Origin: Candidatus Enterousia avicola
GTDB taxonomy: Bacteria; Pseudomonadota; Alphaproteobacteria; Rs-D84
NCBI GenBank assembly: GCA_018714345.1
Contig: DVNO01000021.1
Location: 4,683 to 68,682 of the forward strand
Reading direction: 5' to 3'
Length of the DNA: 64,000 nucleotides
In this document: piece by piece, positions 9,398 through 21,575 of the stretch
How positions within the stretch are numbered: the stretch's first letter is position 1
Layout: every line of letters begins with the position of its first letter
Translations under genes and position numbers: made by a program
The notes under the pieces: generated by a model
Database searches by the model: none
Told to the model about the DNA's origin: nothing
The model's input: only the letters and a program-made list of their open reading frames with translations

Positions 9398-10640
9398 ATT
9401 TTTGTTTATAAGCCAACACATAAGGCACAAACTTATCCGTATTTTCGGCTTTTATCCATGAACGCGGAATTATCAGACTATTATGTTGCCCCGCAGACAT
9501 CTTTGGCAACACCTCATTATTCTTGGCATTTATTATTTGGGGTAAAATAACCGGTATACCATCCGCCACCCCAGGCAGTACAAAAGTTATTTCATCCCCT
9601 GCTTTGATTTCATTTCTTAATTCTAATGTTATTTTTTCGTCATCCGTAGCCGTTATAACACCAGCCGCATGATATGCTGATGTAGAACGCGTTGTTTCAT
9701 AGTTATGTGCGTCGGGGCCTAAATTACCGTCAAAGAAAGCCGTCGTATAACCACGCGTTTCCAACCTATTTAGCTCGTCCATGAAAGGCGTTGGGTCAAA
9801 ATGTTCCGGGTCTTGTGCATAAGCATCCAGCGCACCACGATATGCGTGCACTACACTGCCAACATAATATTCACTACGATTGCGTCCCTCTATTTTCAAT
9901 GAATCTGGTTTTGATTCTATCACTTCACGCAGACGTGGCATCAAGCATAAATCTTTAGAGTTCATAATATACGCGCCACGCTCATCTTCCTCAATCGGCA
10001 TTTCTATTCCAGATTCGCATTCACGTAATATTACGTCATATTTCCACCTGCACAACTGCGCACACGCGCCACGATTCGCTGGACGACCTGTAATAAAATT
10101 AGACAACAAACAACGCCCAGAATAACTCATGCACATTGCGCCATGCACAAATATTTCAAGTCCTACATCTGGGCACTTTTCCCTAATAATTTTAAATTCA
10201 TCATGAGAAACTTCACGCGCCAAAACACACAACCTTGCCCCGGCACGTTGCCAAAACTTTACAGATTCAGCCGAGCATATATTAGCTTGGGTAGAAACAT
10301 GTATTGGTACATCTGGATGATGTTCCCTGACCCACATCATGACCCCAGGGTCTGCGACTATCAACGCATCTGGTTTTAAATAATTTATAGTTTCACTGAC
10401 GCGCGGCATATTGACGAAATCCCGCTCGTGAGCAAATAAGTTAAACGCAAGGTAAACCTTTTTACCTGCGGCATGAGCAAGTTCTATTCCCTGTTTTACT
10501 TCTTCTGTCGTTATTTTTGCACGTGCCCGCATAGAAAACCCCGGCAAACCGGCATAAATAGCATCTGCACCATATAAAATGGCGGTTTTAAAGGCATCCA
10601 GCGTTCCGGCTGGGGCTAATAGTTCTGGTAATTTAGTCAT
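9396..10640 (-). CDS. U32 family peptidase-like protein
   Basis: 414 aa. The N-terminus PELLAPAGTLDAFKTAILYGADAIYAG and a Cys cluster (CMSYSGRC..C..LC) are typical of the U32 family. Confidence 0.8.
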   Translation of the reverse strand: MTKLPELLAPAGTLDAFKTAILYGADAIYAGLPGFSMRARAKITTEEVKQGIELAHAAGKKVYLAFNLFAHERDFVNMPRVSETINYLKPDALIVADPGVMMWVREHHPDVPIHVSTQANICSAESVKFWQRAGARLCVLAREVSHDEFKIIREKCPDVGLEIFVHGAMCMSYSGRCLLSNFITGRPANRGACAQLCRWKYDVILRECESGIEMPIEEDERGAYIMNSKDLCLMPRLREVIESKPDSLKIEGRNRSEYYVGSVVHAYRGALDAYAQDPEHFDPTPFMDELNRLETRGYTTAFFDGNLGPDAHNYETTRSTSAYHAAGVITATDDEKITLELRNEIKAGDEITFVLPGVADGIPVILPQIINAKNNEVLPKMSAGQHNSLIIPRSWIKAENTDKFVPYVLAYKQK

Positions 10641-10698: not shown

Positions 10699-10727
10699 TT
10701 GAAATTATAAATCATACAATGTATAGT
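10699..10727 (+). promoter_or_regulatory. sigma70-like promoter of the (now split) chromosomal tRNA-Thr
   Basis: TTGAAA (10699..10704), 17-nt spacer, TATAGT (10722..10727), ending 10 nt before the tRNA 5' end. Confidence 0.45.
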
Positions 10728-10737
10728 AGAGCACGTT

Positions 10738-10778
10738 GCCAGTTTAGCTCAGCTGGTAGAGCATCTGATTTGTAATCA
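10738..10778 (+). pseudogene. 5' half of chromosomal tRNA-Thr(UGU), interrupted in the anticodon loop (attL side)
   Basis: gccagtttagctcagctggtagagcatctgatttgtaatca comprises the acceptor 5' strand, the D-arm, the anticodon-stem 5' strand tctga and the loop. tRNA similarity stops after 10778. Confidence 0.85.
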
Positions 10779-10817
10779 TCGGTACGGCTATTATGTACGG
10801 CAACGCACAACAATTTT

Positions 10818-10839
10818 TCGCAGTTTTCTGCGATTTTTT
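10818..10839 (+). terminator. rho-independent terminator just inside the island left end
   Basis: Hairpin tcgcag-tttt-ctgcga followed by tttttt. It lies 40 nt after the truncated tRNA half. Confidence 0.45.
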
Positions 10840-10892
10840 ATTACCATAATCATCACAACATTTTTGCAAAATATGGTATTTTTTTGAAATCA

Positions 10893-10912
10893 CTGGACCA
10901 AATTTGGACCAT
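10893..10912. repeat. 20-bp motif ctggaccaaatttggaccat (inverted copy of 21303..21322)
   Basis: It is the exact reverse complement of atggtccaaatttggtccag at 21303..21322. Candidate arm-type recombinase/RDF site. Confidence 0.75.
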
Positions 10913-10977
10913 AAATTACATCCCAAACAGCCCGTTAAAAATTGCATTTCGAACATCAAATAAAAAATTTTTTTCGT

Positions 10978-10994
10978 GGTCCATTTTTGGTCCA
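10978..10994. repeat. related motif ggtccatttttggtcca
   Basis: Same half-sites (ggtcca / tggtcca) with a 5-nt A/T spacer, in direct orientation relative to the right-end copy. Confidence 0.6.
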
Positions 10995-11025
10995 ATAAAA
11001 AATATTTTATGTTTAAAAATTATAC

Positions 11026-11053
11026 TTGATTTACAACCCAGAATAGGTATAAT
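11026..11053 (+). promoter_or_regulatory. sigma70-like promoter of the island-borne tRNA-Thr
   Basis: TTGATT (11026..11031), 16-nt spacer, TATAAT (11048..11053), ending 9 nt before the tRNA 5' end. Confidence 0.5.
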
Positions 11054-11062
11054 TTGGGCATC

Positions 11063-11138
11063 GCCAGTTTAGCTCAGTTGGTAGAGCGGCTGATTTGTAA
11101 TCAGTAGGTCGTTGGTTCAAATCCGACAACTGGCACCA
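11063..11138 (+). tRNA. tRNA-Thr(UGU), complete, island-encoded
   Basis: 76-nt cloverleaf: acceptor gccagtt/aactggc, D-arm agctcagttggtagagc, anticodon stem gctga/tcagt with loop ttTGTaa, T-arm ggttcaaatcc, encoded CCA. Confidence 0.9.
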
Positions 11139-11143
11139 GGATT

Positions 11144-11167
11144 TCCGCGGACTTCGCGGATTTTTTT
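11144..11167 (+). terminator. rho-independent terminator of the island tRNA-Thr
   Basis: Hairpin tccgcg-gactt-cgcgga followed by ttttttt. Confidence 0.6.
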
Positions 11168-11267
11168 ATTTTTCATATTTTGGAAATACCACGATAAAAA
11201 TTGATTATTTTTACATGAAAAAAAGCATTCTTTTTACTGGTGCCGCAAATCAAACACGACAACCATA

Positions 11268-11275
11268 GGGGGGGG
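11268..11275. repeat. homopolymeric G8 tract
   Basis: ataGGGGGGGGtat in the 362-bp non-coding stretch between the island tRNA and the res stop. Confidence 0.9.
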
Positions 11276-11500
11276 TATAGGGTACGCCCCATAGATTTTT
11301 TAACCATCGGCACACCTGTCACACTGTCACGGGTAAATTGGATATGATGGGGTAAATAACAATGACCGCGACAGTCACATTGTCGTGGCCGACGTCAAAC
11401 AAAAATGATTTTATGCCACCGTCATACCATAAAACAGCAAAAACGCGCTGTCGGCCATTTGTCGCATTTTATAAACAGGTCGAAAAAAATTATAATACAA

Positions 11501-14440
11501 TCATTCAAACAATGCCCCCGTGGCACGCCCGCGTGTCAATCGGCAAAAATCTAATATTTCTTTTATCCCGGCATTTTTTTCGCGCCAATTGTAAAACATT
11601 TCATCAGTTAACAAAGAATACACCCACGTGGAATCCATCCTGTTATTTGGTGCCAATTCATTGATCTTTGATATCCAATCCATTGCGCCAATTTCTTTAC
11701 TTTTTACATCTGGATTTTTGGCCATGTTGCTGCCTTTGGTTTCAACAACATAAATATTATTTCCAATTTTCAATATAAAATCTGGATAATACGTGGCCAA
11801 CATTCCATCAGAACGTAAATATCTGAATCTTGCAAACAAATGCTTGTTTTCGTTAATTTTTATAATTCGTTCAACATGGGCATCTGCATCACAGGCCAGC
11901 AAGAAATCTCGTTCCAAGCCACCTTTGTTTGATGGATAAAAAGTTTTTTCATATATAGATTTCTTTATATCCAACGCATAATTTTCGCGCCCAATTAATT
12001 GTTTAATTTCGGAAAAATAACGTTTTTCAATAATGGCATCATGTACATCAATATTATTATGCATTTCATAAATTGCCTTTGATAATTCTGTCATCGTGTG
12101 TTTTATTATTTCTGTATTTGATAATAATAATACGCGCCAATTTCCATCCTGTAATGGATCAAATGGTTGACCAAATAATTTTGTACGGACAAATTTGTCT
12201 ATTGCAGATATCAACAAATTTTGGTCTATTTGCATCAGCGGCATTTCTGTTCTGTGTCCGTTTGATGCAACTTTTGCAAAATTAGATGTAATCGCCCGCA
12301 GCATTTTTTGCAAATATTCATTATATGATTTTGCATTAAATAAATCGCCACGAACCTTGTATTCGCCAAACTGGGTTTTTACTTGCATTTCTGTGCCGAC
12401 AAAGCGTTCTGCATTATCGTGTGGCACCATTTTCTTTAATTGTTCCAGATTCCATCCTGACAAAGGCTGCATATTATCCACAGAAATGATCGAACCATTG
12501 AGAGTTTCTTCACGTTCCTTGATAATTTGTGGCCAAAACATGTCATAATCTGCATAATTATTTTTTAATCCCACAGTTATCATATCCCCAACAGAACTGG
12601 CATCGGTTGGTCTGTCTTTTGTTTCGGAAACAACCAAACTGTTATCCAAATCTTCATAAAAATCTTTAAATGCAGGATGTTCCACAACAAATAAAGTATC
12701 AAGATAATTTAACGGTTCTCGTTTCAGGTCATATATATTATGTCTGTTGTCCGCTTTGATAGCATCATAATCACGGCCACGCCACATTAAACGCAGACCT
12801 CGTCCCAAAACCTGTTCCAACAAGATGGGCTCCTGGGTGGAACGCAACGGAACAATTACGCAAATATTGTTTACATCAAATCCCTCACGCAACATAAGAA
12901 CACTGACTACAACCTTAGGTTGTATTTGACTATCCAGATTGAACAAACGTTGCTTTAATGCGTTCCAATCAGCCGTTTTTAATTCACCCTTTTTATTTGA
13001 ATCTATTTGCATAATATCATCGGGTGCCAAACCTTCGGATTGTAGAAACTCACATACAAATGGTGATACATTTGTATCTTCACATATAACCATCATTTTT
13101 GGATGTTTTGTTGGATCATGTTTTACAAAATCTTCTTCTAAAATTTTTAATCGCGACAATCCGGCTCGCAACATCAATCGCTGGCCATCAGACAGGCCAA
13201 TTACTTTATTGCTGCTGTTGCGCACAGAACGAAATTCTATATCTGCATTTGCCAAACTGGCGATTTCTTTGCGTTCATCCAAAACAAATGTTTTAACAAG
13301 CCCTGTACGCATGGCAACAGATAATTCAAAATTAACAACAATATGCGAAAAATAATGTTTTACCTTATTTTTCTTGCTGCCGCTGGTATCGTATGGCGTT
13401 GCCGAGAAATCAATCTGTATAAAATTACTTTTTAATGCATTTGATAGAACGTTTAAAGATTTCTGCCATTCAACTTCGTGTATTACACCATAGGTTTTGT
13501 TTTCATGAATATGGTGCGCTTCATCATTGAATACACACAAATCGGGCAATCCAGATAAATATTCAAGTATTCCACCACGTAAAAATCTGTCATCCAATGC
13601 ATCTAATGAATTACCCGCCGAAATCCCTGGTGTCAATGGCAATAAATCATTCACAATATTTTTTGTGTCCGATAAATCAACCCCGTTTATATGTAAATCA
13701 TCTTCATTATCTTCATTTTTATCATCTGAATCAACCAACGCATGCCAATTGGTTATCGCAATCAAACCATCGCCAGTTGTTTTATGTCCGATTTCTGATT
13801 TATCTGCCACGGAATTTTGTACAAAAGAATAAATGTCCTGACGATATTTTTCGGGCAGGAATAAATCTTCATTCTTTTTTAAATCCGATGTTTCAAAATT
13901 TCTGACCCCAGGTTCTGTTTCTTTGCCCAAAAAGGCATCCAACAAGCGTTCATATACAATTAACCCAGGCGCAACCAATAAAAAATTTTTAGTATATTTG
14001 ACATCAGCACTTGTCGGCATATATTTTGAGTTCAAATATTGCCACACCATCAATGCGTTCAACACCCATGTTTTTCCGGTGCCGGTCGCCATTTTTATAC
14101 AATATTTGGTCAGATTATATTTATCGGCACACGTTATCCCTAAAAAATCGTTATCAACAAATGGTGTTGCGACAATTTGTCCGATTGCCGAATACATATC
14201 GGATACAGATTTTGATTTCAGAACTTCATGAACATATATTGTGTTCAAAATTGCCTGGCGTTGTCCGTCATGAAAATTTCTTTCACGAACATCACAAAAC
14301 ACAGGTTCAAACCAATATCGCAACAAATCCGCCGTTATCGGTGATACCGCGTTCAAAAACTGCCCAGATTCCCATTCTGCGTTCACAATGGACGATAATT
14401 CAGCCGCAAATTTTAATGGAATATCACGTGTGCCAATCAT
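11501..14440 (-). CDS. res: Type III restriction enzyme Res subunit (SF2 helicase plus C-terminal PD-(D/E)xK nuclease)
   Basis: Walker A MATGTGKTW, DEAH box VFNDEAHHI, motif VI-like QVLGRGLRL and a C-terminal nuclease-like YYPDFILKIGNNIYVVETKG. I prefer the start at Met9 (14440), which forms an ATGA overlap with the upstream ORF stop. The longest ORF starts at 14464. Confidence 0.85.
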   Translation of the reverse strand: MIGTRDIPLKFAAELSSIVNAEWESGQFLNAVSPITADLLRYWFEPVFCDVRERNFHDGQRQAILNTIYVHEVLKSKSVSDMYSAIGQIVATPFVDNDFLGITCADKYNLTKYCIKMATGTGKTWVLNALMVWQYLNSKYMPTSADVKYTKNFLLVAPGLIVYERLLDAFLGKETEPGVRNFETSDLKKNEDLFLPEKYRQDIYSFVQNSVADKSEIGHKTTGDGLIAITNWHALVDSDDKNEDNEDDLHINGVDLSDTKNIVNDLLPLTPGISAGNSLDALDDRFLRGGILEYLSGLPDLCVFNDEAHHIHENKTYGVIHEVEWQKSLNVLSNALKSNFIQIDFSATPYDTSGSKKNKVKHYFSHIVVNFELSVAMRTGLVKTFVLDERKEIASLANADIEFRSVRNSSNKVIGLSDGQRLMLRAGLSRLKILEEDFVKHDPTKHPKMMVICEDTNVSPFVCEFLQSEGLAPDDIMQIDSNKKGELKTADWNALKQRLFNLDSQIQPKVVVSVLMLREGFDVNNICVIVPLRSTQEPILLEQVLGRGLRLMWRGRDYDAIKADNRHNIYDLKREPLNYLDTLFVVEHPAFKDFYEDLDNSLVVSETKDRPTDASSVGDMITVGLKNNYADYDMFWPQIIKEREETLNGSIISVDNMQPLSGWNLEQLKKMVPHDNAERFVGTEMQVKTQFGEYKVRGDLFNAKSYNEYLQKMLRAITSNFAKVASNGHRTEMPLMQIDQNLLISAIDKFVRTKLFGQPFDPLQDGNWRVLLLSNTEIIKHTMTELSKAIYEMHNNIDVHDAIIEKRYFSEIKQLIGRENYALDIKKSIYEKTFYPSNKGGLERDFLLACDADAHVERIIKINENKHLFARFRYLRSDGMLATYYPDFILKIGNNIYVVETKGSNMAKNPDVKSKEIGAMDWISKINELAPNNRMDSTWVYSLLTDEMFYNWREKNAGIKEILDFCRLTRGRATGALFE

Positions 14441-15054
14441 GTTATTTTCCTTTTTTGTTGCCATTTTGTGCGTTTCCCCAGAACGGCGTTCATATTTCTA
14501 CGAATAGTTTCAAATGTATAATTTAACTCCATCATTACCGAACTGTTTTCATAACCATAAATAATTTGTTCGCATTCTTGACATTGCTGTACGGGCGTGT
14601 TTTCTGTTTGGTTATACAATGTGTCACAAGCCTGCTGAATGCGTTGACATATTTTCATAATAGCATCAAACGACTTTATAGATTCTTCTCCCCAATAAAT
14701 CGCAACCTTGTTCCGCAAATTAAAAAAGATTTTAAATTTATCTTTATTTTGTTCCATACGAAATAACGGGATTAATATATCAATGCGTTTTGTATTTATC
14801 GGCAAAGCACGTTCCTGATAATATTTTAATGCACTTTTTCGCTCTGTATTGTTTCTACTTGGCGAACAAATAAATTTGAACAAATCTTCTATCTCTAATA
14901 CCCCAGCTAAAACTTCACCAGCCACATCCATTTTTGCTTTGGTTAATGTTGAGGATTTCCATTTAAATGCCACATATGCGGCCACCCCAGTAAAAAACGC
15001 CATTGATACATTACAAACAATATTTATATTATCAGGTGTAATAATTTCACACAT
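14437..15054 (-). CDS. hypothetical 205-aa protein with N-terminal TM helix, embedded between mod and res
   Basis: The ORF starts 5 nt after the mod stop (RBS gaggtg 8 nt upstream) and its TGA overlaps the res ATG (ATGA). One hydrophobic helix (VSMAFFTGVAAYVAFKW). I recognise no motif. Confidence 0.6.
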   Translation of the reverse strand: MCEIITPDNINIVCNVSMAFFTGVAAYVAFKWKSSTLTKAKMDVAGEVLAGVLEIEDLFKFICSPSRNNTERKSALKYYQERALPINTKRIDILIPLFRMEQNKDKFKIFFNLRNKVAIYWGEESIKSFDAIMKICQRIQQACDTLYNQTENTPVQQCQECEQIIYGYENSSVMMELNYTFETIRRNMNAVLGKRTKWQQKRKIT

Positions 15055-15059
15055 AATAC

Positions 15060-17054
15060 CTACACCTCTATAATTGCCTGGGATTCAAAACCGAACACAT
15101 CAACCGCCTTGACGCAAATTGTGCGTTTGCCGGGAACCTTATCCACAATCAATTCGGCGGAATGTGTCACACGCAATTCATCGCTGTCGTTGGCGGTGTT
15201 TTCACGATAATCTTGCCATACACTGCGAAATGTATGCCCGTCATAATCCGGATCAATTGACCAATATTCAATTAAATCAAATGGCTTTTCTGCCATAATA
15301 TTTTGAACCACTGCTTTACTGTCGTCATCCAATGGCAAACAATCCGGTGACAGTAAAACATAATTATCCAATTCGATAACCAGTTTTTCTTTGCCATCTT
15401 GGTTGGCTGATAAAACACGTGGCTGTTTCAAAGTCAAATATTGCAGCGATGTAAAACGTATTTTTTGATTGTTTACCCAATCGCGATAATCCTTTTTGCG
15501 CAGCATATCCAGCAAATCTGGTGGAATAACCAAAACTTCTATTTCATTTTTAGGTAATTTTGATAATTTATCGCCAATATCAAATGAAAAATTCCACCCC
15601 AAAACAATAACCTTTTTCCACCCACCCATAAAAGATTCACGCAGTTCCATTGCACGCTTTATCGTGCCGGCATTTGTTATCTTGTTTGGACTGTCAACAA
15701 TTACCAGTGTTCTGGTGTCCCGCATATAACCAATATTCGTTGGCGCATCGGCATTATCAAATGGCAATGCACCATATAAACGCATTACCACACGCGCCAA
15801 ATCGGATACACGTTTGTATTGCCGGTCGGATAAAAATGCCTCGCGCGAATAATCACCAATGGAATGGTACAGGAATGGTTTGCAATTGGGGATATCAATC
15901 AACCGTTTGCGCATAATCATAACAGATGGTTTGCCAATATCGGATGTTATCCATCGCCGACCCAATTTTTCCGCCACCGCCGCCGTGGTACCCGACCCAC
16001 CAAAGAAATCCGCCACAATGGAGTTTTTATTGGACGCTATTTCTATAAGCATTTGTGCCAACCCCTCTGGTTTTTGTGTTGCATACCCAACGCGTTCTGA
16101 TGATAAATTTAATACTGGACGCATATTATATTGTTCAATACCAGCGTCTTTAACTATCCATGGGGCACCTTCAAATACGTCTCTTAATATAGTATCCACA
16201 TAATACCTGCCTTTTTCATCTTGTTTTGACCCCATAAAAGGTTTTTCTAAGTATTGACGTTCAATTTGACTGTTTAACGAAAAAGAAGCTGTTTGTTTGC
16301 AATAAAATAGAATTGTGTCATGTTTTCTTGGTAATGCCCCATTTCGTGAGGCGCCCCCACTCCTGTACGACCAAACAATCTCATTCACAAAGTTATTCTT
16401 ACCAAAAATATCATCCATTATTACTTTTACATAATGGCCGGCGTGCCAATCGCAATGCACATAAATTGAACCTTGGTCGGACAATAATTCACGCATTAAA
16501 CACAGGCGTGGATACAGCATTTTCAAATATGATACCGTGCCATCCGCCCATGTATCGGAATACGCAAACTGCTCCAACACCGTTGGTTTTTGTTCGATGT
16601 CACCATTTGGTAAGTTTATTTTTGTTCTGTAATCTGCCTTGGAATCAAATGGTGGGTCAATATAGATTAAATCAATTTTGCCGCGCATACTTGGCAATCC
16701 AGTGGCAGGGTCGCCGCTTAACAATGCCTGCATTGCAAACAGGTTATCACCATGAATTAAACGGTTAAACCAACCGTCTGTATCGCATGAATTCATGTTA
16801 TCCGGTGGGCAACATGCACGAATTTCACCGCGAAACAAACCACTTTCATCACGTGCCGGCAAAACATATTCATTCGTTTGCAGCATCATTTTATTATCTG
16901 ACTGCGCACGTGCCAAAATACGTTCCACTTCTTTTTTACCCTGTGCCACGATTTCCGGCAACATGTCTATCAATGACTTCGGCATCATTACCCCCGTTTT
17001 TGCAAACAAAAAACCGCCAACGGGATAATGGCGGTCGGGGAGTTCATAAATCAC
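15060..17054 (-). CDS. mod: Type III-like DNA methyltransferase Mod subunit (beta-class N6A/N4C)
   Basis: Motif [11 protein letters not shown] precedes motif [25 protein letters not shown] (beta-class order). A further about 290 aa follow motif I at the C-terminus. An alternative start at Met23 (16988) is possible. Confidence 0.85.
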
Positions 17055-17289
17055 CTAAAAGATAGATCCCGCCAGTTTTCGGGAAACCCTATTTTATATA
17101 CTGACGGCTCCCCGACCAAACTGGTGGGGACTACAATAAAAGACGCTTTCGCGCCCTATTGGCGGATACAGCATTATTATTAATGCCGCTTTTAGGTAGG
17201 CTTATGACGGCCCCGAATCCAATTCCCATTGAATTCAACATACATTTTACACCAAATTTTCCAAAAATCAAATACCCGAGGATACGGGT

Positions 17290-17299
17290 GGGGGGGGGG
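17290..17299. repeat. homopolymeric G10 tract (C10 on the mod strand)
   Basis: cgggtGGGGGGGGGGatatg, 236 nt upstream of the longest mod ORF start, in the 387-bp intergenic region. Confidence 0.9.
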
Positions 17300-17391
17300 A
17301 TATGTTTAATATACGCCCGTCATGTGGTGGTTTATATCACAATATATACAGGTGTTGGGATCAGGCGGACGAATATGGGTGGGGGATAATG

Positions 17392-17428
17392 CCAAAACAT
17401 CGGCTGCACCGGATAACTGGCACAGCCG
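17392..17428 (-). terminator. possible terminator after the DUF3631-like gene
   Basis: Hairpin cggctg..cagccg (17401..17428). On the minus strand it is followed by atgtttt. The T-run is weak. Confidence 0.35.
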
Positions 17429-17441
17429 ACCAACATAACAC

Positions 17442-18878
17442 TTAATACGGAATATCCGGCAAATCCGAAATGTCATCGTCTGATAGTTCCGTCACACTAT
17501 TTTCGGCAAAAAATTGTTCTGCCCGTTTAAAGGCGACATTAAGTGTGTCGTCATTGTTGCCTTTGGCATCCGGCGTATCAGGATTATTGGTTTGCACTAG
17601 TGCGGATTCGGATGCATCATCTGCTGAATCCGTGACCCCGTTACACGCCACGCTAGACGCGTCCTGTGTTGTCACGGGGTCACATACAATTTGGGGTACA
17701 TAGCGTTCAAAGGCATCTGTAAATGCCGCGCGTGCATATCCGCGTTTTATTTTGTTGCCGATGCGGACCTGTTGGGGTCTGATATCAAAATCCCGCAGCA
17801 TACCAGCCAAGGTTATACTGGTTAACACCATTTTCCCATATTCTTTATCTGCCCATGGACGGGTTTCAAATTGATACAAGTGCCTTAATAATTCATCTGT
17901 TGCCAAGAAATCTGCACCCGTGTTTTCAAAAACCTGACTAATATCCGCCAATAATTGAATCGGTCGGGTTTCAACATCATCCGACATGGGACATAAACGC
18001 GCCGCAGCATGTGCTAATTCAGATACCAAATCAGGCGATATATGGTGCGCGATTGCGAATAATGGTTCCCAAATATCTGCCTTGCGACCATTCAGAAAAT
18101 TTGGCACATCTGGGAATATTTCGGATATCGCATTAACATTGTCCATCATATACCGCATACACATGCTTTGCAATTGTGTGGTCTGTGGCTTTACTAGACG
18201 CTCGCGCAGCTTTTCAACGCATCTGTCATGCGGACCAGCACGCCGCATAACAATGGTGATACTGCGATCCATTATTGTTGCGTCTCGGTTTCCAATGCCT
18301 GCAATTGCCATTGCACCATAACAATCAAATGTCTTGGTGGCATAATCATTTTTAGTTGCAATGGTACGCAATACTTTGCCGCCACGCTTATATCCTGCAT
18401 TCACAATTCCACGGATTTCATTATTTCCGTTAATATAGGTATCCGCCTCATCTATTAACAGCGTTGGATGCCAAGCCGCGATAGTGCGAAATATTCCGGA
18501 CGCGGTTATGCTGGATATATTTACAGGACTATATGTGGTCAATTCCAACAATTGCAACAACTGTGTTTTACCACATTGTGGGGCCGCAGATTTAATACAC
18601 AGACGTGGCGAATAATCAAATGCATTAACAGCATATGTATGCAACGCCCAGAAGGCCAAAACAATTGATGCCCCATCCGGCAAAACCAAATATCGTTCGT
18701 ATAGAGCACGCAATTTCTGGACCAATTCCAGCCCGTTCACGGGCTCATCCCAGGCATCCAGCATGGGTATGCCGGAATCTGGTTGATTTTTAGTTTCAGG
18801 ACGGTTAAAATAACCTTGAACATTTGGGGAATTAGTGGATGCCGCCGCCACAGTTCCCTTTTCTTTTTGCTCTACCAT
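17442..18878 (-). CDS. DUF3631-like P-loop protein (island replication/mobilisation candidate)
   Basis: 478 aa with Walker A-like APQCGKTQLL, Walker B-like TLLIDEADTYI and IVNAGYKRGG. From memory this resembles DUF3631 proteins of integrative elements and satellites. Acidic C-terminal tail. The start overlaps the upstream stop (TAATG). Confidence 0.55.
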   Translation of the reverse strand: MVEQKEKGTVAAASTNSPNVQGYFNRPETKNQPDSGIPMLDAWDEPVNGLELVQKLRALYERYLVLPDGASIVLAFWALHTYAVNAFDYSPRLCIKSAAPQCGKTQLLQLLELTTYSPVNISSITASGIFRTIAAWHPTLLIDEADTYINGNNEIRGIVNAGYKRGGKVLRTIATKNDYATKTFDCYGAMAIAGIGNRDATIMDRSITIVMRRAGPHDRCVEKLRERLVKPQTTQLQSMCMRYMMDNVNAISEIFPDVPNFLNGRKADIWEPLFAIAHHISPDLVSELAHAAARLCPMSDDVETRPIQLLADISQVFENTGADFLATDELLRHLYQFETRPWADKEYGKMVLTSITLAGMLRDFDIRPQQVRIGNKIKRGYARAAFTDAFERYVPQIVCDPVTTQDASSVACNGVTDSADDASESALVQTNNPDTPDAKGNNDDTLNVAFKRAEQFFAENSVTELSDDDISDLPDIPY

Positions 18879-19117
18879 TATTTACCTCCTTTGATTCTAC
18901 CGGTTGAACTGGGATTGGTTGCGACCCATTCAAAGAATTTGATTTCATCAATCAAAATCTTTGCACCGACCCGATGGATAACTTCCATATCGTTCAGCCC
19001 GTTAAACGGCGCATGGAAGATTAAATCCCGCAGCGACCCGACTGGGAACGCTGGGTGCTTTTTCGCGAATTGCGGCACGGTTAAGTACCGTGGAACATCT
19101 GGGTTAAAAACTGCCAT
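18878..19117 (-). CDS. small HTH DNA-binding protein, excisionase/AlpA-like (putative RDF)
   Basis: 79 aa with an HTH-like segment LTVPQFAKKHPAFPVGSLRDLIF. Its position (upstream of the replication-like gene, in an integrase island) is typical of Xis/AlpA. Confidence 0.5.
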   Translation of the reverse strand: MAVFNPDVPRYLTVPQFAKKHPAFPVGSLRDLIFHAPFNGLNDMEVIHRVGAKILIDEIKFFEWVATNPSSTGRIKGGK

Positions 19118-19266
19118 TTTTCACTCCTGTTTTTAAATTATTGAGTTTCAAGAGACATCGTTGTCGTCTATTGAATAATACAAATATAGGATTTGGCAGT
19201 GCTTAAAGCATCCTAGTTAGCGAAAACGCTTTTTAACGCCTACGATGCGCAAAAATCTGGGATTTT

Positions 19267-20118
19267 TTATTTAAAACCTTTTTTGAAACGCAAAATATTT
19301 TGACCGCGTTCCAACTTTAAACGCTTAACAAATTCGCTGGCTTTTTGGGGGCTGAGGCCAAAATCAGTCCTGATACGATCTTTTAATTGCAGAATACTAC
19401 TACAATCATCATATCTGCCACGATCATATTCATCAACGAACCATTTATATAATTCATCAAAATTCGTGTTTTTTTGGCGATGTTTGCCAGTTGCCTGATG
19501 ATGTGCGCGCGTTTCGATTTCATTTTTTGTTAAAACATGTAAAAATTCATTTGTCAGTATTCTTATTTGTTTAACAGAAACGCACGATACGGCCAATTCG
19601 CGGCAAATATACAACACTAGCGCAGAATAAAGAACTTCGGGATAAATCGGATTCTTTGACTCGATAAATTCAAAATCCTTTTTAAAAAATCTGCGTAAAT
19701 ATACTTTTAAACTTTTGGGAATCCATGTTGGCGACAAATCCGACATGCGCACACTGGTTGAATTTTTAATGTATGGTTCTGATTGTCGATGTTTATTAAT
19801 CAATTCTTCTGGCAAATGTTTGCGACATCCCATTTGCAAGATTGCACGCGATAGATACGGAAAGACTGTTATTGTATTGATATTAGCAATATCATCGGGA
19901 AATTCTGATTCTATTAAATAAAAACAACCCCTCAATAACTTATTTAATTTTATTATTTCCGAACGGGAAATGCTTGTATAGTCCTCTCTGCCAAACAATA
20001 TTCGGAAAGATAAGGACAATAATTTGCTGTAATACCGTTTATTATCCTGACAAAACACACCGCCCGAGGCAAAATCTGATTGTCGCAGTGGTGTATATTT
20101 AATCTGCACCATTGTCAC
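19267..20118 (-). CDS. hypothetical protein coupled to the integrase gene
   Basis: 283-aa ORF whose start overlaps the integrase 3' end by 20 nt. No motif recognised. Confidence 0.5.
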   Translation of the reverse strand: MTMVQIKYTPLRQSDFASGGVFCQDNKRYYSKLLSLSFRILFGREDYTSISRSEIIKLNKLLRGCFYLIESEFPDDIANINTITVFPYLSRAILQMGCRKHLPEELINKHRQSEPYIKNSTSVRMSDLSPTWIPKSLKVYLRRFFKKDFEFIESKNPIYPEVLYSALVLYICRELAVSCVSVKQIRILTNEFLHVLTKNEIETRAHHQATGKHRQKNTNFDELYKWFVDEYDRGRYDDCSSILQLKDRIRTDFGLSPQKASEFVKRLKLERGQNILRFKKGFK

Positions 20119-21166
20119 CCCCGAATATTTTTGCGTTCATGCTGGCAACGACACTGCTTTTATGCGCATCAGACAGGTGTGCATATCGCCGCACCATTGA
20201 CAATGTTTTATGCCCCAATACCGCCGCAATTTCATTGGGCGTTGCGCCATTCATGGCCAAATAACTGGCACAAGTATGCCGCAAATCATGAAAACGAAAA
20301 TCCGATAAGCCTGCCCGCTTGACCGCAGTGTTCCAACTGCGTTTTATGTCACATGGACCAGAATTGTTTTCATTTGGAAACACCCAAACATCTGATTTGC
20401 GGTTGTTATACAAATTACGCATTAACCCCAGCGCAGGCCCCGTTATAGGTACCCCACGCATTTCGCCATTTTTTGTATGTTCCAACACTGCCCAACCGCT
20501 TTTTAAGTCAACATCAGACCATTTTAGTGATAACAGTTCCATACGCCGCGCACCTGTTGAAATTGCCAAAATAATAATTGTATAAAGCGATTTATTACGC
20601 GATTCTTTGGCTGCATCCAGCAACCGTTCGCGTTCAATATCACTTAAATAACGAACGCGACCCCTGTTTTCGCGTTTGTGTTCAACACGCGACACCGGAT
20701 TAATATCAAGCCACCCCAATGATTTAACGCCATAGGATAACGCGCAACTGAGTGCCGCCAGATACCGATTTAATGTTGCAGGGCTTTTGGTCCGGCCACC
20801 ATACTTTATTTTTGCAATTTGGTTTAATGTGTGTGTTATAATGGCGGATGTCAATGAATGCAGTTTTACACCCTCAATAAATTTACGCCATTCTTCCAGT
20901 TGAAACTTTATATTACGCGCAGACCGCAATTCACATTCTGCCAAATGCGTTTCATATTCGTCAAACAATTCGCCGACAGTGCGGTTATATGCAGTCAAAT
21001 CAGGAATATGCTTTTGGTCACGCAATTCGTTTTCTGTTTTAATTGCCCATTCACGCGCCAATGTTTTACTGGAAAATGTGGCTGTGCGGATAAGGTTGCC
21101 CTCTACCCGAACACGCGCCCGATACTTGAAACCGTCTTTTGTCCTGCGTTTTTCAAAAGTTGCCAT
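20099..21166 (-). CDS. int: tyrosine recombinase / phage-type integrase
   Basis: 355 aa with catalytic residues in order: TGARRMEL (Arg), HDLRHTCAS (HxxR), LGH, RRYAH (Tyr). N-terminal SAM-like/arm-binding region. Confidence 0.92.
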   Translation of the reverse strand: MATFEKRRTKDGFKYRARVRVEGNLIRTATFSSKTLAREWAIKTENELRDQKHIPDLTAYNRTVGELFDEYETHLAECELRSARNIKFQLEEWRKFIEGVKLHSLTSAIITHTLNQIAKIKYGGRTKSPATLNRYLAALSCALSYGVKSLGWLDINPVSRVEHKRENRGRVRYLSDIERERLLDAAKESRNKSLYTIIILAISTGARRMELLSLKWSDVDLKSGWAVLEHTKNGEMRGVPITGPALGLMRNLYNNRKSDVWVFPNENNSGPCDIKRSWNTAVKRAGLSDFRFHDLRHTCASYLAMNGATPNEIAAVLGHKTLSMVRRYAHLSDAHKSSVVASMNAKIFGGDNGAD

Positions 21167-21302
21167 CTGTTGAATCCTGTTTTTCAGAGATAATACAACA
21201 ACTTACAGCAAATGTCAAAAACATACAACAGATTCACAATCTGTGGGACGGTATATAAAAAATACAATAAAATCAATAGGATACGCTTTTATAATATTGA
21301 AA

Positions 21303-21322
21303 ATGGTCCAAATTTGGTCCAG
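21303..21322. repeat. 20-bp motif atggtccaaatttggtccag (partner of 10893..10912)
   Basis: Exact inverted copy of the left-end motif, lying between int and attR. Additional tggac(a/c) half-sites follow at about 21366 and about 21437. Confidence 0.75.
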
Positions 21323-21530
21323 TTGTCTAAAATCAACATATAAAAATACTCGGAATTCTGACTGTTTGGACACAAAATCCACACACACAAATTATGTATA
21401 AATTTATTGCAAAGTATTGTAAAAAATGTCCCAGAAATGGACAGAACACATCAAAAAATGACAGAAATAACGCATAAAAACGCGACAAAACAGGGATTAA
21501 TCAAGGCACCAAATTGAGCCAATGTCAATG

Positions 21531-21575
21531 TTTGTAATCAGAGGGTCGTTGGTTCAAGTCCGACAACTGGCACCA
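21531..21575 (+). pseudogene. 3' half of chromosomal tRNA-Thr(UGU) (attR side)
   Basis: tttgtaatcagagggtcgttggttcaagtccgacaactggcacca comprises the anticodon loop/3' stem tcaga, variable loop, T-arm, acceptor 3' strand and CCA. It is complementary to the 5' half at 10738..10778. Confidence 0.85.

What the first reader, a model, noticed from the sequence alone, without database searches (positions are those of the whole stretch)
10738..21575. Integrative island splits tRNA-Thr(UGU) in the anticodon loop and brings its own complete replacement tRNA instead of restoring the target
Seen in sequence: 10738..10778 is a tRNA 5' half (acceptor gccagtt, D-arm, anticodon-stem strand tctga, loop tttgtaa). 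21531..21575 is the matching 3' half (tcaga, variable loop, T-arm ggttcaagtcc, aactggc-a-cca), followed by its own terminator. Joined through one copy of the 10-bp direct repeat tttgtaatca, they make a 76-nt cloverleaf with anticodon UGU. The two halves co-vary in the anticodon stem (tctga/tcaga). The complete tRNA-Thr(UGU) at 11063..11138, which lies 284 bp inside the left end, uses gctga/tcagt and differs at roughly six other positions (D-loop, variable loop, T-loop). It also has its own -35/-10 and terminator. It is therefore a distinct, imported gene and not a rebuilt target. A third copy of the 10-bp core sits inside the island tRNA (11094..11103). Established knowledge: tyrosine-integrase islands often target tRNA genes, including the anticodon-loop sublocation, but attP normally carries the displaced tRNA segment so that a hybrid intact gene is regenerated at one junction. 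Here neither junction is regenerated. Inference: the element inactivates the host isoacceptor gene and compensates in trans. If no other UGU gene exists, non-precise loss of the island would be costly to the host. I am not aware of this disrupt-and-replace design being commonly described.
Basis: partly seen in the sequence, partly recalled or inferred. Interest (0 to 1): 0.78.

Follow-up and report, generated by a model that had tools for sequence, protein, structure and literature searches.

The report
Island splits tRNA-Thr, carries replacement
A 10.8-kb mobile island has cut the host's threonine tRNA gene in two and carries its own working copy instead of repairing it, a design already shown in temperate phages in 2024 ("tRNA-dependent lysogeny") and seen here in a non-phage restriction-modification island.

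Summary
Window 10779..21540 is one 10,762-bp insertion into the anticodon loop of tRNA-Thr(UGU), bounded by the 10-bp core tttgtaatca. A contig of the same or a sister species has the empty site. Its intact tRNA is 76/76 identical to the joined halves. Neither junction encodes a tRNA.

The island carries a complete tRNA-Thr(UGU) with its own promoter and terminator. This tRNA travels with the island into a host with a different tRNA allele. It is identical to the native allele of a sister host lineage.

An 18-bp motif found nowhere else in the window flanks the core on both sides, like arm-type integrase sites. A relative (integrase 75% identical) is classical: its attP supplies the tRNA 3' half. 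In the window, the homologous 35 nt have decayed, but the terminator and motifs behind them remain. So this form descends from a canonical one.

It was shown experimentally as tRNA-dependent lysogeny in actinobacteriophages (mBio 2024) and has been noted in Lactobacillus and Sinorhizobium prophages. What differs here is a non-phage element (integrase, DUF3631, Type III restriction-modification) in an uncultured, probably alphaproteobacterial host. Compensation and essentiality are inferred, not shown.

The parts
10699..10727 (+). Native promoter of the split host tRNA-Thr(UGU) (TTGAAA-17-TATAGT), still upstream of the orphan 5' half
   Evidence: the same sequence lies upstream of the intact tRNA in empty-site contig L119
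10738..10778 (+). Host tRNA-Thr(UGU) 5' half (positions 1-41, including core copy 1 at 10769..10778); this is attL
   Evidence: 100% identical to the 5' part of the intact tRNA in L119
10779..10813 (+). Decayed relic of an island-supplied tRNA 3' half (the P3 slot of a formerly classical attP)
   Evidence: Alignment A3. It is 18/35 identical to the intact 3' half at the homologous position in classical relative L123, while the flanking terminator slot is 76% and the spacer-plus-motif region 60% identical. Taken alone the similarity is weak (162 of 5000 shuffles reach it); the argument rests on position and flanking homology.
10818..10840 (+). Relic intrinsic terminator (tcgcagttttctgcga + T-run), homologous to the terminator behind the 3' half in L123
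10894..10911 (.). Putative arm-type integrase site, P' arm (TGGACCAAATTTGGACCA), +116 from the core
   Evidence: 3 sites in 64 kb, 0 expected by chance; aligned with the motif in L123
10977..10994 (.). Putative arm-type integrase site, P' arm (TGGTCCATTTTTGGTCCA), +199 from the core
11026..11053 (+). Promoter of the island-borne tRNA (TTGATT-16-TATAAT)
11063..11138 (+). Complete island-borne tRNA-Thr(UGU); contains core copy 2 at 11094..11103
   Evidence: ARAGORN; Rfam tRNA model 75.2 bits; identical over the 56 nt covered in L007's island; 76/76 identical to the native tRNA of sister lineage L122
11144..11170 (+). Terminator of the island tRNA
   Evidence: resembles the CCGCGG-stem terminator behind the 3' half in L123 (by eye; 55% identity in the three-way alignment)
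11501..14464 (-). Type III restriction enzyme (res)
   Evidence: Pfam ResIII; PADLOC REase_III
14437..15054 (-). 205-aa ORF of unknown function between mod and res
   Evidence: no significant family
15060..17054 (-). Type III methyltransferase (mod)
   Evidence: Pfam N6_N4_Mtase; PADLOC MTase_III, 1.4e-81
17442..18878 (-). DUF3631 protein of the conserved island backbone
   Evidence: conserved next to int in L005, L007, L010, L125, L129
18878..19117 (-). 79-aa backbone ORF (a possible excisionase or regulator; no family hit)
   Evidence: the role is inference only
19267..20118 (-). 283-aa backbone ORF of unknown function
20099..21166 (-). Tyrosine integrase; R207, K232, H293, R296, H319 and Y328 are invariant among 18 homologues
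   Evidence: Pfam PF00589, 6.7e-34; alignment A1
21304..21321 (.). Putative arm-type integrase site, P arm (TGGTCCAAATTTGGTCCA), -227 from the core
   Evidence: invariant block in the P arms of six relatives
21526..21540 (+). Conserved CAATG followed by core copy 3 (21531..21540); this is attR
   Evidence: CAATG or CATG precedes the core in the window, L007, L005, L124 and L123
21541..21575 (+). Host tRNA-Thr(UGU) 3' part (positions 42-76)
   Evidence: 100% identical to L119
21584..21614 (+). Native terminator of the host tRNA
   Evidence: sequence read; the same hairpin follows the intact tRNA in L119, though its T-tail differs slightly

Best explanation
Window 10779..21540 is a 10,762-bp integrative island. 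It encodes a tyrosine integrase, three backbone ORFs including a DUF3631 protein, and a Type III restriction-modification system. It inserted by site-specific recombination into the anticodon loop of the host's tRNA-Thr(UGU). Its attP shares only the 10-bp core tttgtaatca with the target, so integration splits the gene and neither junction rebuilds it. The island supplies a complete tRNA-Thr(UGU) with its own promoter and terminator, 284 bp from the core. This tRNA is inferred to replace the lost function in trans. The element therefore works like phage 'tRNA-dependent lysogeny', but on a non-phage island.

Shown here: the insertion point, the split, the lack of reconstruction at either junction, the intact island tRNA with expression signals, its co-transfer with the island, and motif sites on both sides of the core.

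Inferred: that the integrase binds those motifs, that the island tRNA is expressed and needed, and that precise excision restores the host gene.

Origin: the attP descends from a canonical one that carried the tRNA 3' half. After the island acquired a whole tRNA gene (an allele native to a sister host lineage), that 3' half decayed.
For: Empty site: L119 has the intact tRNA, 76/76 identical to the join, and is colinear with the excised window across the junction. L120 also reads through the junction.

No tRNA at either junction, and a clean tRNA after in-silico excision.

The integrase is intact with its catalytic residues conserved.

The 18-bp motif occurs only three times in 64 kb (0 expected by chance). 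All three sites lie within about 230 bp of the end cores, on both sides.

The P arm is homologous in six relatives, with a conserved CAATG next to the core.

The island tRNA scores 75.2 bits against the Rfam tRNA model, versus 72.6 for the intact host allele. It has a promoter and a terminator.

The same island in L007 is 99.5% identical over the tRNA-res-mod part and has an identical tRNA over the 56 nt covered. It sits beside a host 3' half with a different acceptor strand.

The tRNA is identical to the native allele of sister lineage L122.

Classical relative L123 has a perfect 45-bp repeat of core plus 3' half. The window's P' arm is homologous to it throughout, with the 3'-half slot decayed to 51% identity while the terminator slot is 76%.

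The same arrangement occurs in four assemblies.

The mechanism has experimental precedent (PMC10865867).
Against: There are no expression or fitness data. The genome-wide copy number of tRNA-Thr(UGU) is unknown, so the split might be tolerated without compensation. No attP circle or excision junction was found in any collection. A complete attL of this split type was seen only in the window's own organism, because related contigs break inside the tRNA repeat. No excisionase was identified. The relic 3' half is not significant as an isolated sequence match.
Confidence: 0.8

Rival explanations
1. Classical island. The element is 11104..21540, the complete tRNA at 11063..11138 is the regenerated target (host 5' half plus island 3' half), and the 5' half at 10738 is an unrelated leftover or local duplication.
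For: There is a 45-49-nt direct repeat of core plus 3' half between 11094 and 21531 at 92% identity. That is what a classical island looks like, and relative L123 has exactly that layout.
Against: The empty site L119 lacks 10779..11062 and joins the 5' half directly to the 3' half. Segment 10779..11062 is the island's P' arm: it is homologous to L123's and contains two of the three motif copies. The 27-43 pair covaries within the outer halves and within the inner tRNA but not across them, and the hybrids have T.T or G.A mismatches.
Confidence: 0.03
2. The split is real, but the island tRNA is ordinary cargo rather than a compensator. It might, for example, counter tRNA-cleaving defences or adjust codon supply. 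The host would survive because it has another tRNA-Thr(UGU), or because another isoacceptor covers ACA.
For: Gene copy number could not be determined. Roles of phage tRNAs in countering tRNA-cleaving defences are discussed in PMC10865867.
Against: The island tRNA has exactly the anticodon of the gene it destroys and lies 284 bp from attP. The decay of the formerly restoring 3' half is what relaxed selection after gaining a replacement would produce. Two other candidate split loci in the same integrase family also carry a cognate tRNA: Ser-GCU with Ser-GCU in L015, and Thr-CGU with Thr-CGU in L058.
Confidence: 0.12
3. Composite history. The present structure arose in two or more steps, for example a remnant of an older island's attP region followed by later capture of an attL-type tRNA cassette. 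In that case it may no longer move as one unit.
For: The island contains two '3' half plus terminator' modules, one decayed and one intact. L010 and L129 show a third architecture at the same core.
Against: The comparison with the empty site fits one insertion bounded by one 10-bp duplication. The integrase is intact. The same backbone occurs with different cargo and in different hosts, which suggests recent mobility. A stepwise origin of attP does not conflict with present-day movement as a unit.
Confidence: 0.05

Closest known systems
tRNA-dependent lysogeny of actinobacteriophages (Fionnbharth K4, Cluster L, Gaia, BrutonGaster and others; Guerrero-Bustamante & Hatfull, mBio 2024, PMC10865867)
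   Same: A tyrosine integrase uses an attB inside a tRNA gene. The common core is only 8-17 bp (10 bp here). No functional tRNA is formed at attL or attR. [quoted passage not shown] Putative arm-type sites flank the attP core. Close relatives use the canonical, tRNA-restoring form at the same site (Boilgate versus Fionnbharth there; L123 versus the window here).
   Different: This element is not a phage: it has no structural, lysis or repressor genes, and its cargo is a Type III restriction-modification system. The host is an uncultured, probably alphaproteobacterial lineage, not Actinobacteria. The target is tRNA-Thr(UGU). The tRNA lies 284 bp from the attP core rather than elsewhere in the genome, and it still contains a perfect copy of the core. 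It is 100% identical to a sister host's native allele, whereas Fionnbharth's tRNA is 88% identical to its nearest known relatives. A recognisable relic of the 3' half remains in attP. The requirement for the tRNA is untested here.
Canonical tRNA-targeting genomic islands with anticodon-loop crossover (Williams 2002; Islander database, PMC4383910)
   Same: The integrase family is the same: most of the 80 surveyed relatives have a complete tRNA 100-500 bp upstream of int, and about ten also show the displaced fragment running from position 30-33 to the 3' end. The crossover is in the anticodon loop. The displaced 3' fragment marks one island end.
   Different: The defining restoration of the target by island sequence does not happen. 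An orphan 5' half is also left, which canonical islands never leave. Int lies next to the displaced fragment, on the opposite strand to the tRNA.
Prophages that inactivate a tRNA and carry a replacement, noted bioinformatically: Lo5R7ANS-like prophages in Sinorhizobium meliloti (tRNA-Leu(UAG), PMC11476347) and Lj965 in Lactobacillus johnsonii (cited in PMC10865867)
   Same: The target tRNA is disrupted in its central part. The replacement tRNA carried by the element resembles alleles from other bacteria rather than the host's own. One of these precedents is in Alphaproteobacteria.
   Different: Those elements are intact prophages. Here the element is a small restriction-modification island, and the empty site, a classical sister element and the decayed relic are all documented.

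Membership tests
tRNA-dependent lysogeny (PMC10865867) | A tyrosine integrase recombines attP with an attB overlapping a host tRNA gene | tested here: met
   PF00589 integrase; insertion in the anticodon loop shown by the empty site
tRNA-dependent lysogeny (PMC10865867) | The short common core (about 8-17 bp) means no functional tRNA is reconstructed at attL or attR | tested here: met
   10-bp core; ARAGORN finds nothing at either junction
tRNA-dependent lysogeny (PMC10865867) | [quoted passage not shown] | tested here: met
   tRNA-Thr(tgt) at 11063..11138, with promoter and terminator
tRNA-dependent lysogeny (PMC10865867) | The element's tRNA is required for viability of integrants (the host tRNA is essential and single-copy) | not testable with these tools
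   Only 64 kb plus neighbouring contigs are available, so the whole-genome tRNA count and genetics are out of reach
tRNA-dependent lysogeny (PMC10865867) | The element is a temperate phage that establishes lysogeny | tested here: not met
   Seven ORFs of at least 79 aa (plus a doubtful 100-aa ORF at 11362..11664). PHROGs hits are limited to integrase, methyltransferase and helicase. The cargo is a Type III restriction-modification system. The best phage relatives of int and DUF3631 are about 31% identical. It works like the family but is an island, not a prophage.
tRNA-dependent lysogeny (PMC10865867) | Arm-type integrase-binding sites flank the attP core | tested here: inconclusive
   An 18-bp motif lies at -227, +116 and +199 from the core and nowhere else in the window. 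It is conserved in relatives. Binding was not tested.
Canonical tRNA-restoring genomic island (Williams 2002 / Islander) | Crossover within the tRNA gene (anticodon-loop sublocation) | tested here: met
   The core covers tRNA positions 32-41
Canonical tRNA-restoring genomic island (Williams 2002 / Islander) | Island sequence regenerates an intact target gene at one junction | tested here: not met
   No tRNA at attL or attR. Only a decayed relic (51% identity) occupies the 3'-half slot. Sister element L123 does meet this feature.
Canonical tRNA-restoring genomic island (Williams 2002 / Islander) | A displaced tRNA fragment marks the distal end | tested here: met
   The 3' half at 21531..21575

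The most novel reading that the evidence does not exclude
Within one integrase clade, the same 10-bp core in tRNA-Thr(UGU) is used by three attP architectures. The first is canonical 3'-half restoring (L123). The second is split plus a trans tRNA (the window, L007). The third has a promoter plus a whole tRNA or its 5' half fused to the P arm next to int (L010, L129). The most novel reading is that these islands capture whole tRNA genes from attL junctions by imprecise excision. This would free them from having to match each host's 3' half and so widen their host range. The captured tRNA keeps a perfect attB core inside the island, so the integration hotspot would move into the element itself. 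Candidate split-and-replace loci for tRNA-Ser(GCU) and tRNA-Thr(CGU) in distant members of the integrase family (L015, L058) hint that the design recurs across phyla in non-phage islands.
Probability: 0.2. Interest if true: 0.6.

Novelty: new member of a known kind. Interest (0 to 1): 0.42.

Why it matters
The finding extends a recently described integration strategy beyond temperate actinobacteriophages. Here it is used by a small, non-phage restriction-modification island in an uncultured Gram-negative lineage. This implies that island-mapping tools which assume the target tRNA is regenerated will mis-delimit such islands.

The finding also speaks to a question the 2024 paper left open: which form came first. 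Here the attP still holds a decayed 3' half with its terminator and arm motifs in place, and a sister element has the intact canonical version. The direction in this clade was therefore canonical to tRNA-dependent.

If the tRNA is single-copy, the island is also hard to lose imprecisely, which would help stabilise the defence cargo it carries.

Tried and rejected
Viral-contig scan with a degenerate pattern matching attB, attP, attL and attR: it returned only generic tRNA-Thr genes and unrelated classical attPs.

Metagenome scan for the attL/attP 19-mer: ten chance hits inside unrelated coding sequence. JGI data contain no close relatives of this integrase (sources).

Testing the relic 3' half as an isolated match: weak (162 of 5000 shuffles; about 2 SD above the island background). 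I accept it only because of positional homology with L123. I found no relic of a 5' half on the P-arm side.

Reaching the far junction of the L010-type island through its HsdR: the sister contig L129 ends just short of it.

L043's apparent orphan 5' half: rejected as a scaffolding artefact, because it abuts an N-run.

Contig breaks inside the tRNA 5' half in L002, L007 and L128: these fit a repeated 5' half but were not used as proof.

No excisionase, and no family assignment for the 79-, 205- and 283-aa ORFs.

Host taxonomy: the only hint is that integrase relatives are named as Alphaproteobacteria MAGs.
Full report
OBSERVATION. A tRNA 5' half lies at 10738..10778 and a matching 3' half at 21531..21575. 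The 10-bp core tttgtaatca is present at 10769, 11094 and 21531. ARAGORN finds only the internal tRNA-Thr(tgt) at 11063..11138. After in-silico deletion of 10779..21540 it calls a 76-nt tRNA-Thr(tgt) at the join, and neither junction as it stands gives a tRNA. The joined tRNA and the island tRNA differ at six positions in all (16, 26, 27, 43, 44, 59). The 27-43 pair is T-A in the joined halves and G.T in the island copy. Both possible hybrids are mismatched there (T.T or G.A).

THE SPLIT IS A REAL, SINGLE INSERTION. I looked up contigs encoding the flanking peptidase U32 gene and its close homologues. L119 (peptidase 99% identical, same gene order on both sides) has an intact tRNA-Thr between the two flanking genes. 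That tRNA is 76/76 identical to the in-silico join. The excised window aligns to L119 as one colinear block across the junction: 11.2 kb at 96.8% identity. L120 also reads through the junction. The occupied arrangement recurs in four assemblies, and a 10-bp repeat cannot cause a mis-assembly. So 10779..21540 (10,762 bp) entered as one piece with a 10-bp duplication.

WHAT THE ELEMENT IS. All its genes are on the minus strand:
- a tyrosine integrase next to the right end (PF00589; R207, K232, H293, R296, H319 and Y328 invariant among 18 homologues);
- 283-aa and 79-aa ORFs of unknown function;
- a DUF3631 protein;
- a Type III restriction-modification pair, mod and res, with a 205-aa ORF between them.

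There are no phage structural or lysis hits. The best relatives of int and DUF3631 in sequenced phages are about 31% identical. Island GC content (39.5%) matches the flanks. The same int-DUF3631 backbone carries Type I restriction-modification cargo in L005, L010 and L129, and other cargo in L123. It is a small integrative island with swappable defence cargo, not a prophage.

ATT SITE ANATOMY. The 18-bp motif TGGWCCANNTTTGGWCCA occurs three times in the 64-kb window, with 0 expected by chance. The sites are 227 bp left of the right-hand core and 116 and 199 bp right of the left-hand core. In the circular form they would flank one core on both sides, as arm-type sites do. The P arm is homologous in six relatives, with an invariant block at the motif and a conserved CAATG abutting the core. 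This places the left island boundary at 10779, not at 11104.

THE ISLAND tRNA. It scores 75.2 bits against the Rfam tRNA model, compared with 72.6 for the intact host allele. It has a sigma-70-like promoter (11026..11053) and a terminator (11144..11160). In L007 the same island is 99.5% identical over the tRNA-res-mod part. Its tRNA is identical over the 56 nt the contig covers. The displaced host 3' half there has a different acceptor strand, atccggc rather than aactggc. So the tRNA travels with the island. It is 76/76 identical to the native tRNA at the syntenic locus of a sister host lineage, L122 (peptidase 88% identical), but the flanking sequences differ. It is an imported allele from a related host.

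ORIGIN. The wider integrase family is canonical. Among 80 loci from species-representative genomes, most have a complete tRNA 100-500 bp upstream of int on the same strand. In about ten, the displaced fragment runs from position 30-33 to the 3' end.

In the window's own clade, L123 (integrase 75% identical) is canonical at the same core. It has a complete tRNA at one junction and a perfect 45-bp repeat of core plus 3' half at the int-proximal junction. Its arm motifs lie about +129 and +211 from the core, behind the 3' half and a terminator.

The window's 10760..11062 aligns to this arrangement throughout. Identity by segment is: core 10/10, 3'-half slot 18/35, terminator slot 22/29, spacer plus motifs 60%. 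The terminator hairpin survives at 10818..10833. So this attP once supplied the 3' half and has since let it decay. That is what relaxed selection would produce once a whole tRNA gene was on board. The 2024 paper lists this as one of several possible scenarios and leaves the question open.

A THIRD ARCHITECTURE, UNRESOLVED. In L010 and L129 (integrase 74% identical), the last 90 nt or so of the P arm are replaced by a promoter plus a complete tRNA-Thr. The 3' flank of that tRNA is the same host terminator that follows the displaced half in L123. I could not reach the far junction.

KNOWN OR NEW. The design is published. In 'tRNA-dependent lysogeny', attP and attB share only about 10 bp, no tRNA is rebuilt, and a phage-encoded cognate tRNA is required for viable integrants. 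This was shown by genetics in mycobacteriophages and found in several clusters. Canonical and tRNA-dependent forms occur among close relatives (PMC10865867). The paper also cites Lj965 of L. johnsonii. S. meliloti prophages that inactivate tRNA-Leu(UAG) and carry a replacement have been reported as well (PMC11476347). I found no report for a non-phage island, but absence from this library is weak evidence.

MECHANISM, WITH STATUS.
- Shown: the insertion site, the split, the non-restoration, a complete promoter-equipped cognate tRNA, its co-transfer with the island, and conserved motif geometry.
- Inferred: integrase binding to the motifs; strand exchange within the anticodon-loop part of the core; expression of and need for the island tRNA; restoration of the host gene on precise excision (both halves remain 100% identical to the empty-site allele).
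- Inferred benefit: the element need not match each host's 3' half. With the window host, a hybrid would carry a mismatch at positions 27-43. With the L007 host, the acceptor stem would be mismatched (inferred).

RIVALS. The canonical-island reading with a boundary at 11104 is contradicted by the empty site and by P'-arm homology. 'Cargo tRNA without compensation' cannot be excluded without a genome-wide tRNA count. It is made less likely by the cognate anticodon, the position next to attP, the decayed relic, and cognate pairs in two further candidate loci, L015 and L058.

VERDICT. The novelty claim is not: this is a new member of a known kind. Its added value is that it is a non-phage example with a documented empty site, a canonical sister element and a molecular relic that gives the direction of evolution. 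Interest 0.42.

Noticed in passing
L010:9571-10000 and L129:2848-3277: In islands whose integrase is 74% identical to the window's, a sigma-70-like promoter plus a complete tRNA-Thr(UGU) replaces the last ~90 nt of the P arm right next to int. The tRNA's 3' flank is the same host terminator that follows the displaced 3' half in classical L123. Either attP here carries a promoter plus 5' half (or a whole captured tRNA gene), or this is a deletion derivative.
   Followed up: partly
L015:9684-9722 and L015:16492-16580: The host promoter and tRNA-Ser(GCU) 5' part end right after the anticodon arm and run into a T-run, followed by an integrase 47% identical to the window's. A complete tRNA-Ser(GCU) of a different allele (covarying anticodon stem) lies 6.5 kb inside. 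This is a candidate second split-and-replace island; the contig ends before the far junction.
   Followed up: partly
L058:2295-2327 and L058:5252-5327: The host promoter and tRNA-Thr(CGU) 5' half are broken after the anticodon loop, followed by int (36% identical) and a 508-aa ORF. A complete tRNA-Thr(CGU) of another allele lies on the opposite strand. No displaced 3' half was found within 10 kb.
   Followed up: partly
L049:9626-9681 and L049:9811-9884: A 56-nt 5' fragment of tRNA-Gln(CUG), 100% identical, lies 185 bp upstream of a complete copy that precedes int. It is either an orphan 5' fragment with a T-loop breakpoint or a local duplication.
   Followed up: no
window 10699..10840: The orphan 5' half keeps its native promoter and is now followed by the relic terminator. 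A roughly 100-nt chimeric transcript (tRNA 5' half plus relic) may therefore be made in island carriers.
   Followed up: no
window 11094..11103: The island tRNA keeps a perfect copy of the core, and most of the anticodon stem, 325 bp from the attP core in direct orientation. The island therefore carries an intact attB-like site. This could allow alternative integrase products or the docking of further islands.
   Followed up: no
L007:6871-9329: In the host carrying the 90%-identical integrase, a 790-aa gene lies between the displaced 3' half and the conserved flanking gene. The 3' half has acceptor strand atccggc, so the tRNA-Thr locus is variable on that side.
   Followed up: no
L005:393-6112: An integrase identical to the window's sits on a backbone carrying Type I (HsdM) rather than Type III restriction-modification cargo. 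The P-arm sequence near the core also differs. Cargo swapping on one integration module appears to be recent.
   Followed up: partly
L121:7600-8320: In a related island-free host, a 102-aa ORF sits just downstream of the intact tRNA. It is bracketed by two copies of the same terminator-like hairpin (aaaaagcagcctttcggctgctcttttt), which suggests a small insertion at the tRNA's 3' side.
   Followed up: no
L047 (int at 10001; tRNA-Val(GAC) at about 19044-19119, minus strand): A Vampirovibrionales MAG shows the same inverted orientation as the window clade: int next to the displaced 3' fragment, with the complete tRNA at the far end on the opposite strand. The layout there is canonical and restores the tRNA.
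   Followed up: no
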